Assembly (NCBI RefSeq): GCF_045037415.1
Contig: NZ_CP173440.1
Strand: one strand, 5' to 3'
Length of the DNA: 64,000 nucleotides
From: Escherichia coli
GTDB taxonomy: Bacteria > Pseudomonadota > Gammaproteobacteria > Enterobacterales > Enterobacteriaceae
The position numbers were made by a program, and so were the translations under genes. Shown here in pieces: positions 17,549-49,823 of the stretch (its first letter is position 1; the number at the start of each line of letters is the position of its first letter). The notes beneath the pieces are model-generated. The model had not been told where the DNA came from and made no database searches. It saw only the letters and a program-made list of their open reading frames with translations.

Positions 17549-18100
17549 CAACGATTTAATAATGCAGTCTGGCTCCCGAACTGGACATTTGCGAAAGCAT
17601 GTGTCCAGTTGTTTATTTCCCCTCCAGGCTTTCAATGAAACAGTTAATCCTTCATAATCACTGGATGATTACAAATTATTTCCTCTATTAATTCACCCCC
17701 CCCCTGGTCAAAGCATTTGTATCTGGCATAATGGTTATGTCGGGGACACCCCAACCTCCCGAAAATAAATCCTCAGCTACTTAATATTCGCAGGATATGC
17801 CAATGCCAACTAAGAATGAGGCTTTAAATTTATTAGCGGTTGCGATTCAGGCCGCAACCGACAGTGGTCTTTTCGATAATGAGATGTTAGGCGCTGTTGC
17901 TAACGCAGACTCCATTAATGATTTCTGTGATGCCGTATCTTTTTTGTCCGGAGAAAAAAACAAACTCCAACAGTAATTCATTATTAATAAATATTTTGTT
18001 CCAAACGGACTCAGTATTGACCCTGAATCACTTACTCATGAGAAGGTCGAGCAATTCATTCAAATCATTAAAACAACACAACAGCTATCAGTGAGGCGAT

Positions 18101-18748
18101 ATGTCGACAGAGAGCAGCTCAAAAATCACTTTTACTTTTAACGGTAAGGCTCCTCAAAACTGGAGAACTGCCTTGAATAGTAAAAAGAAAGGGTCCTGGA
18201 TTGATCCGCAATCCAGCGGCAGCAAAGTACTGCAAGAAATCCTCAGTAACACCGGAATTGATGCGGACAGCCTGAGCGGTAATGATGTTCTGATTTTTTC
18301 GGTGCCCTCTCAGCGTGAGATTTTGTCTGAACTTCTTGGGATCTATGCCGTTTCAGATGCCAGAGTGTTGCTTATTGCCGCTACGCAATTCTGCCCAAAC
18401 CTTTCTGGTGTGCTGGTAACAACCCACCAGCTTCTTTCTGATGGCAGTTCCGTTGCCAGCGAACAAAAAGCTACACGTAACCTTTTGTTCATGACACACA
18501 ACGGTATCTGTATTCAGTGTGATTTTTCTTTGAATCTTGATCCGTCCAAACTACCCGGTGCCCGTTTCTTTGCCTGTGAAGCTGATATGGAACAAGCAGG
18601 TATTGAGCGCTGGGGCGAGAATGGTGGAGATGCCTGGCGTGCCGTAGCTACGATTATGCATGGCGAAAAAATTCTCCTGAATGGTTCCGGCCAGATATTA
18701 AAACTGGATGACAGGCCGGAAGAACGAATTAACGCTGTCAGCAATTAA
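18101..18748 (+). CDS. hypothetical protein
   Basis: 215-aa ORF. Confidence 0.5.
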   Translation: MSTESSSKITFTFNGKAPQNWRTALNSKKKGSWIDPQSSGSKVLQEILSNTGIDADSLSGNDVLIFSVPSQREILSELLGIYAVSDARVLLIAATQFCPNLSGVLVTTHQLLSDGSSVASEQKATRNLLFMTHNGICIQCDFSLNLDPSKLPGARFFACEADMEQAGIERWGENGGDAWRAVATIMHGEKILLNGSGQILKLDDRPEERINAVSN

Positions 18749-18761
18749 ATCCATTTAAAGG

Positions 18762-19016
18762 GTGACGATTATGAACACAACTTTTCTGGGGCAGAGTGAG
18801 TTTATCAAGCATGAAGGTCTTTTATTCTTGTTATCTGACGAAAGCTGTTTAGCTATTAACCATATTGAATGGGCTGAAAAAATATTGTCCAGTGATAATG
18901 TTAAATATCAAAATGGCCGGATGTCTCATGAAGTCGCCTACGAAGTTATGGAAGAATCCCAAGATATCTTATTAGAATATTTGTGTCTGACTTTACCGCA
19001 AGTTCCCACCCGATAA
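18762..19016 (+). CDS. hypothetical protein
   Basis: 84-aa ORF 13 bp after the previous gene. Confidence 0.45.
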   Translation: MTIMNTTFLGQSEFIKHEGLLFLLSDESCLAINHIEWAEKILSSDNVKYQNGRMSHEVAYEVMEESQDILLEYLCLTLPQVPTR

Positions 19017-19045
19017 ATTATCTACTTGAATCGAATGAGACTATC

Positions 19046-19072
19046 GAGCCCCCCTGAGTTCAGGAGGGGCTC
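19046..19072 (+). terminator. hairpin terminator
   Basis: GAGCCCCCCTGAGTTCAGGAGGGGCTC inverted repeat. Confidence 0.45.
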
Positions 19073-19277
19073 TTAACCATAACCAGAGTTCCTTCAGTCA
19101 ATACAATCAGAAGCAAATAGTTTTATCAAAAAATTAATGCAAACCAACCATAAACAGTTAATGTTTATATTGTTGCCAGCAACAACACACATTAAATCTT
19201 CCTTTTTTTATAATCAACCCCTGGCGCACAGAACTAAATGTGAGATAATGGGTTTGTGAAATTCACCGGAGTCTTAT

Positions 19278-47984: not shown

Positions 47985-48067
47985 GGTGTTTTTCCTTCTA
48001 TGCTTTTCCGTAAATTGACTGAGTGGCCTGTATGTAGAGAGTGGAACAGGCCAGTACAGGTAATGCT

Positions 48068-48274
48068 TTACTGACCGGTAGTTTTGCCTTCCTGAGGTTC
48101 GTCTTTAGAAGACGCCCTTTTTTTCAGTCCAAAACGACCAGCAAAGTAGGCCAGCGCCAGGATGGCGTATACCTGCCAGAAAGGCCAGTCCGAAAGGAAA
48201 TAGCCCATGTGGTAGGAGAGGATCAACAGCCCGATGATGGGTACCAGTAATGCTTCCCGTTTAATGTTTTTCAT
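48068..48274 (-). CDS. small membrane protein
   Basis: 68 aa; motif copy at 48285-48295 directly upstream. Confidence 0.45.
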   Translation of the reverse strand: MKNIKREALLVPIIGLLILSYHMGYFLSDWPFWQVYAILALAYFAGRFGLKKRASSKDEPQEGKTTGQ

Positions 48275-48351
48275 TTCTACCTCAAAAGTGACTTTTATTG
48301 GTTAATTTGTGCCTGTGGCATAGTAATGACACTATTCTTTACTTCTCTCTC

Positions 48352-48882
48352 CTAGTCGCAGTTCACCCCCACTACAAAAAGGACCAGCCCAGTGGTGACA
48401 TTAAGGCTTCTGAGATCGGTCTGTTCTGTGGTTAAGGCCCTGAGATTGGCGTCAGTCGCATCCAAGGGGTATAGCGCCTGTGTCAACAGGAGAGCATTTT
48501 CATCCGAGCAGGTTAAACCGAGAGAAATAACGTATGACTGATAATTCAGCCGTACCCGCTTCTGTTCCTCGTCGCCCGCGCAGTTAAAATAATCGAGCGA
48601 GCGTGGCTCAAATGCCTCATCTGCAATGCTCTCCAGCACCCCATGTTTTTGAGGCATGATCTGCAATGGTAATACCGCTGCCGGGAACTGGTTACAACTG
48701 TGGCCTCCGCATTGTTCTTCGCCAAGGAACCAGTCCTGGGAAGGTGACTCCGGAACTATCTTCGTTGAAGCCAGCACCAAAGCAGGGTATTGATCGTCAT
48801 GACAGAACCAGGGGGCAAAATGCTTCTCCGAAATATCGGATATATTTCTTCCATACAGAATCGGTGGAATAGAGGATTTCAT
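48352..48882 (-). CDS. hypothetical protein
   Basis: 176-aa ORF. Confidence 0.5.
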   Translation of the reverse strand: MKSSIPPILYGRNISDISEKHFAPWFCHDDQYPALVLASTKIVPESPSQDWFLGEEQCGGHSCNQFPAAVLPLQIMPQKHGVLESIADEAFEPRSLDYFNCAGDEEQKRVRLNYQSYVISLGLTCSDENALLLTQALYPLDATDANLRALTTEQTDLRSLNVTTGLVLFVVGVNCD

Positions 48883-49015
48883 TACTCTGACCTGCCTTAA
48901 TTTTTGATTATCTTTCTAACCAGATATCTTCTGCTTGTCCGAAACATAATTCACTCTTCCATACATAACCACCATATACTTGAAGTGTATCCTGATATGC
49001 AGTGGAGATTCTGGC

Positions 49016-49306
49016 TTAAGACGATAAATTGTCTTTTGAATAAAATTTATTTTCCTGCATGCTGGATACGGCGAATTTTCTGTTTATCTGGTACTGAAAC
49101 TGGCGGCGTGCAGCCAGGGAATAGGATATGTATTCGTGCCCGCACTGCCTGCATTTACACATATAACCTGTACCTTTAGTTGCGAGTACTGATACATCTC
49201 CCCATCCGTTATGATCCAGACCCGCCCTTAAACGGTGCCAGTTTTTTTCATAGCAGGGCAAGCAGCGTAGGCTTCGATTTCTTCGGCAACTTCCACGTTC
49301 ACCCAT
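49016..49306 (-). CDS. hypothetical Cys-rich protein
   Basis: CKCRQCGHEY. Confidence 0.35.
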   Translation of the reverse strand: MGERGSCRRNRSLRCLPCYEKNWHRLRAGLDHNGWGDVSVLATKGTGYMCKCRQCGHEYISYSLAARRQFQYQINRKFAVSSMQENKFYSKDNLSS

Positions 49307-49823
49307 ATGCAGTTAAAACCCCTATTGTATTCGTGTCTGGCAGGAACAATTATACAGATTGAAACGTTGTGTAAAGCCCCTATTTAGGAATTCCGTCCAA
49401 AAAACATTATATATATCATAAACATCCAATAATTACGGAAAGAGCTACAGAGGGTGACTGAGGCGTGAGTGATTGATCATGTTGTTCTGGTCTCGATATG
49501 GCCCACCAGCGCAAATGTGTAGGGTGCCGGTGCAAGTATAAAAATGACTAGTGTGCCGACAACAGTGAGAAAAGCGGAAAAGTGACTTTTACGGGAGTAC
49601 AGCATGGTCATAAACAACAGATCATCCCCCCACAACACAGATATCTCTAAGAGGAATATGCTTCATATTTATGATGTAGTCTTATCATCTCTTTTTAAAC
49701 TTTATGCGACTCATTAGAGACATACGGTCAAAACCATAACTATGCCTTAGACGCTGCCCTCTTTTCCTCGTCCCCCCCACCCCCTCCCATCGGTCAAAAA
49801 ACAGCCGCAGTTATGTTGTCACA

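What the first reader, a model, noticed from the sequence alone, without database searches (positions are those of the whole stretch)
17797..49617. Plausible small genes below the 60-aa ORF threshold
Examples are a 59-aa ORF at 17797-17976 (plus strand, MPMPTKNEALNLLAVAIQAATDSG...), a 53-aa ORF at about 36378-36539 (minus strand, MKVTVKSMKVLLASTGKK...) and a 44-aa hydrophobic ORF at about 49483-49617 (minus strand) that carries a motif copy within its first codons. Small proteins are common in plasmid accessory islands.
Basis: seen in the sequence. Interest (0 to 1): 0.25.

Follow-up and report, generated by a model that had tools for sequence, protein, structure and literature searches.

The report
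Two small genes, one gene remnant
Of three short open reading frames flagged on this Klebsiella plasmid, one is a real conserved small gene shared with phages, one is real only in its last 35 codons, and one is the broken remnant of a longer membrane-protein gene; all of this is ordinary.

Summary
The window is a Klebsiella pneumoniae IncFIB/IncHI1B (pNDM-MAR-type) hybrid plasmid. All three ORFs exist, at coordinates a few bases off those given, but ORFs of 40-59 aa are commoner in random sequence (about 296) than in the window (188). Only conservation separates them.

ORF1 (17803-17976, +, 57 aa) is a real gene. RefSeq already annotates it as WP_004883165.1. It belongs to a family of roughly 55-aa acidic, predicted three-helix proteins with an invariant core, under strong purifying selection. 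Relatives sit in phage early-type gene arrays and in Klebsiella myoviruses. No Pfam, PHROG, NCBIfam, PADLOC or PDB match exists.

ORF2 (36374-36535, -, 53 aa, WP_162138575.1) is real only in part. The last 35 codons, from an internal ATG at 36481, are under selection (pN/pS 0.17). The first 18 codons look neutral and lie behind an A-run whose length varies, so the upstream frame differs between alleles.

ORF3 (49477-49611, -, 44 aa) is not a gene. It is an internal piece of a 114-aa membrane-protein gene that is intact in related plasmids. Here that gene is broken by a 2-nt loss, a deletion of about 195 nt and decay of its start signals.

Function remains unknown and interest is low.

The parts
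17705..17732 (+). Promoter-like site upstream of ORF1 (TGGTCA, 16-nt spacer, CATAAT preceded by TG)
   Evidence: Consensus scan. The block is nearly invariant even in the 74%-identical pIMP4_LL34 sequence (alignment A1). It is a consensus match only, with no expression data.
17803..17976 (+). ORF1: real 57-aa small protein gene (WP_004883165.1), with AGGA Shine-Dalgarno at 17792-17795. The alternative upstream ATG at 17797 is unlikely to be used.
   Evidence: Annotated by PGAP. Homologs are 51-57 aa with an invariant core. pS is 0.72-0.99 against pN 0.11-0.44. All six diverged homologs examined also have purine-rich SD-like motifs upstream. The profile finds 111 cluster representatives. Phage homologs exist.
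17986..18078 (+). Relic of a second gene directly after ORF1's TAA stop and in the same frame. It is homologous to residues 56-86 of the 104-aa protein WP_017901020.1 of pKOX_R1/pIMP4_LL34-type plasmids and has no start codon of its own.
   Evidence: Alignment A1; frame translation; BLASTP 20/31 identical, E 4e-13.
36374..36481 (-). ORF2 conserved core: 35 codons plus stop, from the internal ATG (MKLTGSNKNGDRFYVVTGWSGEYTIRGIAWQLGLV)
   Evidence: pN/pS 0.17, Fisher p = 5e-4, while the two other frames give ratios above 1.5. The core is intact in 6 of 7 records whatever the upstream frame.
36482..36535 (-). ORF2 N-terminal 18 codons as annotated by PGAP (WP_162138575.1). The frame is not conserved, so this is either a 5' leader or a dispensable extension.
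   Evidence: pN/pS 0.89. Three frame states occur among 7 records. The alternative-frame N-terminus allele P0020 is on 519 contigs.
36481..36488 (-). A8 homopolymer whose last A is the first base of the internal ATG. Its length is polymorphic (A8/A7, plus loss of an adjacent G) between plasmids.
   Evidence: Alignment A2; run lengths per record.
49477..49611 (-). ORF3: a 44-aa frame that is a pseudogene fragment. Positions 49526-49611 are homologous to part of residues 18-51 of a 114-aa membrane protein, and that homology continues 5' of this ATG to about 49628. Positions 49477-49525 are a new tail read from DNA that is non-coding in the relatives.
   Evidence: Alignment A3; translations of the intact homologs; BLASTP 22/32 identical, E 1e-13. 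No SD lies within 5-10 nt of the ATG. No feature is annotated here in full PGAP records.
49622..49666 (-). Ancestral start of the 114-aa gene (ATG 49664-49666), now a 14-codon dead-end frame (MKHIPLRDICVVGG*) because 2 nt are missing at the G-run 49626-49631.
   Evidence: The upstream GAGG Shine-Dalgarno and first ATG of the intact homologs are GATAAG and ATC in the window. pSA-KpST14 has one G fewer, which restores a 62-aa frame from this ATG.
49525..49526 (-). Junction of the deletion of about 195 nt that removed the C-terminal 63 codons and the stop codon of the 114-aa gene
   Evidence: Alignment A3, columns 279-495.

Best explanation
The finding bundles three unrelated things.

(1) ORF1 is a functional gene for a 57-aa acidic protein predicted to form three helices. 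It probably has its own promoter and has a Shine-Dalgarno sequence. It belongs to a widespread, undescribed family (consensus AL..L..AL..ATDSGLFD....PDSINDxCDAV). Members are found mainly as stand-alone genes in arrays of small co-directional genes in phages, prophage early operons and plasmids. The most likely mode of action is inferred, not shown. Like other small acidic early proteins of phages and plasmids, it would act by binding and modulating a host or competitor protein at the time the element establishes itself, rather than acting as an enzyme.

(2) ORF2 encodes a conserved 35-residue, strand-rich polypeptide inside an operon of small hypothetical genes. Translation most likely starts at the internal ATG at 36481, which directly follows an A-rich tract. 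On that reading the annotated 53-aa form over-extends the gene into a leader where A-run indels are tolerated.

(3) ORF3 is not a gene. It is what remains of a 114-aa multi-pass membrane-protein gene after a 2-nt frameshift, a deletion of about 195 nt and loss of the original ribosome-binding site. Its hydrophobicity is inherited from one ancestral transmembrane segment.
For: ORF1. Annotated CDS. Eleven homologs, including 51-55-aa proteins at 64-80% identity with 25 invariant positions. Synonymous sites are saturated while pN is 0.11-0.44. SD-like motifs are present in all six diverged homologs examined. 111 representatives at E < 1e-3, most of them 50-65 aa. The family's net charge runs from -2 to -10. 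AF2 pLDDT is 80 with three helices. Contexts are phage-like: a 145-kb contig with T7 gp1.1 and T4 gp30.7 domains, a lambdoid prophage early operon between the CI-like repressor and RecT/YqaJ, and Klebsiella Mydovirus phages at 70-76% identity.

ORF2. The core has pN/pS 0.17 (p = 5e-4), and this holds only in this frame. The N-terminal part has pN/pS 0.89. Frame states upstream of the internal ATG differ among records. The -1 allele is on 519 contigs.

ORF3. Intact 114-aa homologs are annotated in three diverged plasmids and are under purifying selection (pN/pS 0.23-0.41). The alignment shows the frameshift, the deletion and the decayed SD and ATG. BLASTP E is 1e-13 over residues 20-51. PGAP annotates nothing there.
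Against: No expression or proteomic data are available for any of the three. ORF1's function is entirely inferred from context. There is no fold or family match, and the downstream partner gene is not conserved. For ORF2, the one confident AF2 model (pLDDT 88; the other four score 44-52) packs an N-terminal helix from the 'variable' 18 codons against the core. The internal ATG has only a weak GGA as SD. The N-terminal pN/pS rests on just 8 substitutions. For ORF3, a truncated peptide could still be made from the internal ATG. In pSA-KpST14 the ancestral ATG is back in frame, giving a 62-aa ORF.
Confidence: 0.85

Rival explanations
1. All three are functional small protein genes, and ORF3 encodes a small hydrophobic membrane peptide (for example a type I toxin-like peptide).
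For: ORF3 has one strongly hydrophobic segment (Kyte-Doolittle 19-residue maximum 2.24). The 44-aa frame is intact in the four window-type sequences compared. A promoter-like hit lies inside it, which fits residual transcription.
Against: ORF3 aligns codon for codon with the interior of an intact 114-aa gene. It is separated from that gene's start by a 2-nt loss, and it ends in formerly non-coding DNA after a deletion of about 195 nt. It has no SD at a usable distance. The ancestral SD and first ATG are mutated. PGAP calls nothing here. No Rfam antisense or toxin RNA family matches.
Confidence: 0.07
2. ORF2 is a genuine 53-aa protein whose A8 tract acts as a slipped-strand (phase-variable) switch, or a transcriptional-slippage site, that alters or turns off the N-terminal helix.
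For: The homopolymer sits inside the annotated coding region, and its length differs between closely related plasmids in both clades. Two of the three upstream frames are open and have start codons. The best AF2 model includes an N-terminal helix at pLDDT 81-91.
Against: The core keeps its own ATG immediately after the tract, so indels do not switch it off. The N-terminal codons show no selection (pN/pS 0.89). A7-A8 is short for a contingency locus. Some length differences may be assembly errors in single records. Four of the five AF2 models are poor.
Confidence: 0.12
3. ORF1 is itself a decaying chimera. On this view it is the front of a once-longer gene of about 140 codons, interrupted by a premature stop, and the 57-aa product is non-functional.
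For: In both the window and pIMP4_LL34 a single long reading frame contains one in-frame stop, at different positions. The sequence right after ORF1's stop is homologous, in frame, to the C-terminus of a 104-aa protein.
Against: Independent homologs from phages and metagenomes end at the same place (51-57 aa) and are followed by unrelated genes. The family is under strong purifying selection. The pIMP4_LL34 copy, not the window copy, has lost the conserved core (DSGLFD...SINDFCDAV). Within the window clade the post-stop relic accumulates substitutions faster than ORF1: 7 in about 100 nt against 3 in 174 nt, counted by eye on alignment A1.
Confidence: 0.05

Closest known systems
Hypothetical small proteins WP_004883165.1 (Klebsiella plasmids) and UVX29501.1 (Klebsiella phage VLCpiM5b, Mydovirus, Vequintavirinae)
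   Same: ORF1 is identical to WP_004883165.1. It is 70-76% identical over 46 residues to the Klebsiella Mydovirus phage proteins and 58% to the Salmonella phage protein. Length, conserved core and position in an array of small co-directional genes all match.
   Different: Nothing differs in kind. None of these proteins has a described function or a Pfam, PHROG or NCBIfam family.
Small acidic early proteins of phages and plasmids that bind host or defence proteins (for example T7 Ocr, ArdA, T4 AsiA, anti-CRISPRs); comparison from general knowledge
   Same: ORF1 is small (about 55 aa), acidic (family mean net charge -6), predicted all-helical, and encoded among early-type small genes of phages and prophages.
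   Different: No sequence or fold similarity to any of them was found. No target is known. ORF1 is far smaller than Ocr or ArdA and is not shown to be a DNA mimic.
Hypothetical protein WP_162138575.1 / WP_004026397.1 / WP_162140056.1 (ORF2 alleles in IncHI1B/IncFIB plasmids)
   Same: Same locus and the same C-terminal 35 residues.
   Different: The alleles differ in N-terminal frame and length (53, 55 and 58 aa). Some records (pNDM-MAR, p35, pC105) list no CDS here in the gene tables.
114-aa predicted membrane protein WP_154909813.1 / WP_024266243.1 / WP_099745216.1 (p298-1, pJNQH491-2, pINF352_2)
   Same: ORF3 matches residues 20-51 at 69% identity, in the syntenic position and on the same strand.
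   Different: ORF3 lacks the N-terminal 17 residues in frame and the C-terminal 63 residues, and it has a 15-residue unrelated tail. It is a remnant, not a member.

Membership tests
ORF1-like small protein family (no database name; WP_004883165.1 / UVX29501.1 type) | Length about 50-60 aa as a stand-alone ORF | tested here: met
   57 aa. Homologs are 51-57 aa. The median length of 40 family members is 56 aa.
ORF1-like small protein family (no database name; WP_004883165.1 / UVX29501.1 type) | Conserved core ATDSGLFD ... (P/A)DSINDxCDAV | tested here: met
   The window has ATDSGLFDNEMLGAVANADSINDFCDAV. 25 positions are invariant in alignment A4. L11, A18 and N39 are invariant across 40 distant members.
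ORF1-like small protein family (no database name; WP_004883165.1 / UVX29501.1 type) | Reading frame under purifying selection | tested here: met
   pS 0.72-0.99 against pN 0.11-0.44 across the pairs involving a diverged homolog.
Anti-restriction / anti-defence DNA mimics (Ocr, ArdA) as a home for ORF1 | Sequence or fold similarity to a known member | tested here: not met
   No Pfam, PHROG, NCBIfam or PADLOC hit. No Foldseek hit with E < 1 in the PDB or BFVD. The profile against PDB sequences gives nothing below E 0.6.
Anti-restriction / anti-defence DNA mimics (Ocr, ArdA) as a home for ORF1 | Demonstrated inhibition of a defence system | not testable with these tools
   This needs an experiment.
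Phase-variable (contingency) gene, for ORF2 | Homopolymer in the 5' coding region with length polymorphism among close relatives | tested here: met
   A8/A7 and loss of an adjacent G among 7 records.
Phase-variable (contingency) gene, for ORF2 | A change in tract length switches the functional product on or off | tested here: not met
   The selected 35-codon core begins at an ATG immediately 3' of the tract. It stays intact in every tract variant; the only disrupted copy (p35) carries an indel elsewhere.
Type I toxin-like small hydrophobic peptide, for ORF3 | Independent, conserved small ORF with its own translation signals | tested here: not met
   ORF3 is an internal fragment of a 114-aa gene, and no SD lies at a usable distance.
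Type I toxin-like small hydrophobic peptide, for ORF3 | Cognate antisense RNA | tested here: inconclusive
   No Rfam family matches 48880-49870 at E <= 1. Undescribed RNAs cannot be excluded.
Pseudogene / gene remnant, for ORF3 | Homology to a longer gene that is intact in relatives, with disabling lesions here | tested here: met
   A 2-nt loss at the G-run, a deletion of about 195 nt, and mutation of the SD and first ATG. The intact homologs are under selection (pN/pS 0.23-0.41).

The most novel reading that the evidence does not exclude
ORF1 represents an undescribed family of roughly 55-aa acidic three-helix proteins (ATDSGLFD...DSINDxCDAV) that is shared between large conjugative plasmids, Klebsiella and Salmonella myoviruses and lambdoid prophage early operons. 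On this reading it acts as a host-takeover or anti-defence factor by binding a conserved bacterial target.
Probability: 0.2. Interest if true: 0.45.

Novelty: already known. Interest (0 to 1): 0.15.

Why it matters
It matters little beyond annotation hygiene. ORF1 and ORF2 are already RefSeq CDSs labelled hypothetical. The useful points are these. First, ORF1 can be placed in a well-defined, selected family shared by phages and plasmids that no domain database covers, which makes it a reasonable candidate for screens of small early or anti-defence proteins. Second, ORF2's annotated start is probably wrong, and its alleles differ by homopolymer indels. Third, ORF3 illustrates how gene decay produces plausible-looking hydrophobic mini-ORFs that should not be counted as small proteins.

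Tried and rejected
Family scans of all three peptides against Pfam, NCBIfam, PHROGs and PADLOC found nothing. Scans of 40 ORF1-family members against PHROGs and Pfam also found nothing.

Pfam scans of 20 larger proteins that carry the ORF1 domain gave one P22 NinX fusion and nothing else.

Fold searches of the ORF1 model against the PDB and BFVD, and of the ORF2 model against the PDB, gave no hit with E < 0.3. The AcrIIA4 and dsRBD-like top hits for ORF2 (E about 0.4) were rejected as non-significant. They also rest on one confident model out of five.

A profile search against PDB sequences found nothing. tblastn of ORF2 against phage genomes gave no match. A literature search for the accessions found no papers. 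Rfam found nothing over the three ORFs.

I considered and rejected the idea that ORF1 plus the in-frame relic downstream is a single read-through gene. Independent homologs stop at the same point and are followed by unrelated genes.

I considered sequencing error as the cause of the ORF2 frame differences. I rejected it for the main -1 allele, which is on 519 contigs. It remains possible for single records such as pNDM-MAR and p35.

I could not count A-run alleles over all 425 plasmid records, because only a limited number of regions can be fetched.
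Full report
WHAT THE WINDOW IS. The three regions match large conjugative Klebsiella pneumoniae plasmids of the IncFIB/IncHI1B (pNDM-MAR-type, MOBH) hybrid family at 100% identity. An example is pEBSI036-1-NDM-VIR, NZ_MT648512.1. repB (52234-53385, minus strand) and four 21-nt iterons (51774-52048) lie nearby. An ISCfr12 copy (terminal inverted repeats at 49824-49857 and 51130-51163) sits between them and ORF3.

OBSERVATION. All three ORFs exist. ORF1 is exact at 17797-17976. ORF3 is 49477-49611, about 6 nt off. An ORF of this size means little by itself. The window holds 188 ORFs of 40-59 aa, and composition-matched random sequence gives 296 +/- 14.

ORF1 (17803-17976, +). PGAP already annotates it from the second ATG as a 57-aa hypothetical protein, WP_004883165.1. 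That start has AGGA 7 nt upstream, while the first ATG has it only 1 nt away. A promoter-like TGGTCA-16-(TG)CATAAT at 17705-17732 lies in a block conserved even at 74% overall identity.

A search of 5.8 billion proteins found relatives of 51-55 aa at 64-80% identity, with the core ATDSGLFD(D/N)EMLGAVxNADSINDFCDAV invariant. I fetched their DNA and computed Nei-Gojobori statistics. Synonymous sites are saturated (pS 0.72-0.99) while pN is 0.11-0.44. All six diverged homologs examined carry a purine-rich SD-like motif upstream of the start. This is a real gene under strong purifying selection.

A profile search of 1.84 billion representatives found 111 clusters at E < 1e-3. Most are stand-alone proteins of 50-65 aa. 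Some carry the domain as a module in proteins of 140-490 aa, and one of those also has a P22 NinX domain. The family is uniformly acidic (net charge -2 to -10, mean -6). AlphaFold predicts three helices at pLDDT 80.

Nothing matches in Pfam, NCBIfam, PHROGs, PADLOC, PDB sequences, PDB folds or BFVD folds.

The genomic contexts are consistently phage-like arrays of small co-directional genes. These include a contig of about 145 kb with T7 gp1.1 and T4 gp30.7 domains, a DNA-polymerase-A phage contig, and a lambdoid prophage early operon between a CI-like repressor and RecT/YqaJ. Annotated hypothetical genes also occur in Klebsiella Mydovirus phages (VLCpiM5b, P8734, Seu621, KP13-26) and in a Salmonella phage, at 58-76% identity.

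On the plasmid, ORF1 sits among hypothetical genes, downstream of a RelE/ParE toxin gene and upstream of an orphan N6/N4 DNA methyltransferase. Function is not shown. By inference from size, charge, fold and context, the most likely role is a protein-binding modulator of a host or defence component during establishment.

A WRINKLE AT ORF1. In the 74%-identical pKOX_R1/pIMP4_LL34-type plasmids (MOB-suite types their replicon as IncU) the ORF1 homolog has decayed. It runs for 36 codons, only the first 21 align, and the conserved core is lost. A 104-aa CDS follows it in the same frame. In the window, the 31 codons at 17986-18078, in frame just after ORF1's stop, are 65% identical to residues 56-86 of that 104-aa protein (E 4e-13) but have no start codon.

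So the two lineages have each lost one member of an ancestral gene pair. The window keeps ORF1 and a relic of its neighbour. Independent homologs that end at the same point and are followed by unrelated genes rule out the reading of ORF1 as a truncated long gene.

ORF2 (36374-36535, -). PGAP annotates 53 aa here (WP_162138575.1). In the 83-84%-identical pNDM-MAR clade it annotates 53 or 55 aa, or the gene tables list nothing. The alignment shows an A8 run, whose last A is the A of an internal ATG at 36481, varying in length. The records show A8 or A7, or the loss of an adjacent G.

As a result, three different frames lead into the same downstream sequence among seven records. The alternative-frame allele (MEDEILCKINENTTCQPRKK-MKLTG...) is on 519 contigs, so it is not a sequencing artefact.

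Between the two clades the last 35 codons have Sd 7.5 and Nd 4.5 (pN/pS 0.17, Fisher p = 5e-4), while the other two frames give ratios of 1.6 and 3.5. The first 18 codons give 0.89. The conserved coding unit is therefore the 35-aa MKLTGSNKNGDRFYVVTGWSGEYTIRGIAWQLGLV.

Whether the upstream 18 codons are translated is open. One of five AF2 models (pLDDT 88; the others 44-52) packs them as a helix onto a three-stranded sheet. No fold match is significant, and no phage homolog exists. The flanking 90-aa and 95-aa genes match PHROGs of unknown function. Function is unknown. I read ORF2 as a small strand-rich protein co-transcribed with its neighbours, with a mis-extended annotated start.

ORF3 (49477-49611, -). 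No record annotates anything here. That includes E. coli RefSeq plasmids with full PGAP output, where pseudogenes would be listed. In plasmids at 73-75% identity (p298-1, pJNQH491-2, pINF352_2) the syntenic position carries an annotated 114-aa multi-pass membrane protein gene on the same strand. That gene is itself under purifying selection (pN/pS 0.23-0.41).

The alignment shows what happened in the window clade:
- The ancestral ATG survives at 49664-49666, but its GAGG Shine-Dalgarno sequence and the first ATG are mutated.
- Two nucleotides are missing at a G-run (49626-49631), so that frame ends after 14 codons (MKHIPLRDICVVGG*).
- ORF3 is the continuation in the shifted frame, at 69% identity to residues 20-51 (E 1e-13).
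- A deletion of about 195 nt at 49525/49526 then removes the C-terminal 63 codons and the stop.
- ORF3's last 15 codons are therefore read from DNA that is non-coding in the relatives.

There is no usable SD before 49611 or 49638. One relative (pSA-KpST14) has one G fewer, which puts the ancestral ATG back in frame and gives 62 aa. This shows that the G-run drifts. ORF3 is a gene remnant, and its hydrophobicity comes from one ancestral transmembrane segment.

The TGTTTATGA copy in its first codons is one of six in the window, against 0.74 expected. Unlike the copy at 49416, it is not conserved in the relatives, where the same positions encode VLFFMT.

VERDICT. ORF1 and ORF2 are already annotated hypothetical proteins. 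Nothing here is mechanistically surprising.

The only mildly interesting residue is that ORF1 defines a clean, selected family shared by phages and plasmids and absent from all domain libraries. Interest is 0.15.

Noticed in passing
window 49016-49306 (-): An unannotated 96-aa ORF with paired cysteine motifs (C-LP-C ... C-K-C-RQ-C, zinc-ribbon-like) lies downstream of a sequence block conserved in the 73-75% relatives. Its frame is kept in all diverged relatives (86-96 aa) with pN/pS 0.24-0.44, and it has a weak PHROG hit (phrog_28753, E 6.5e-7). Full PGAP records annotate nothing on 48900-49835. It is a more convincing missed gene than ORF3.
   Followed up: partly
window 10107, 10390 (+); 12784, 15448, 49416, 49608 (-): The 9-mer TGTTTATGA occurs 6 times against 0.74 expected, and none of 100 shuffles reached 6. 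Five copies are intergenic and face the next gene downstream. The copy at 49416 is conserved in the 73-75% relatives. It may be an operator or promoter element of a backbone regulator.
   Followed up: partly
window, somewhere between about 18.8 and 35.8 kb: The ORF1 block matches one strand of the best-matching plasmid records, and the ORF2 and ORF3 blocks match the opposite strand. The window therefore carries an inversion or rearrangement relative to those records. The breakpoint was not located.
   Followed up: no
window 17986-18078 (+) and L006 551-661: There is reciprocal decay of a gene pair. The window keeps ORF1 plus a relic of a 104-aa gene. pKOX_R1/pIMP4_LL34-type plasmids keep the 104-aa gene (WP_017901020.1) plus a decayed 36-codon ORF1.
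   Followed up: yes
window 61771-61996 (+): A group II intron D1-D4 RNA domain (Rfam RF02005, 186.6 bits, E 1e-54) was found. It probably goes with the 495-aa ORF at 62101-63588, which was not checked.
   Followed up: no
window 51774-52048: Four 21-nt direct repeats (ACGTACGACGGTTAATnTTTT) lie just upstream of repB (52234-53385, -). They look like iterons of this replicon.
   Followed up: no
window 20591-23971 (+): A 1126-aa ORF directly downstream of an orphan N6/N4 DNA methyltransferase (19278-20522) has no Pfam or PADLOC hit at all. It is a large uncharacterised protein in the same gene block as ORF1.
   Followed up: no
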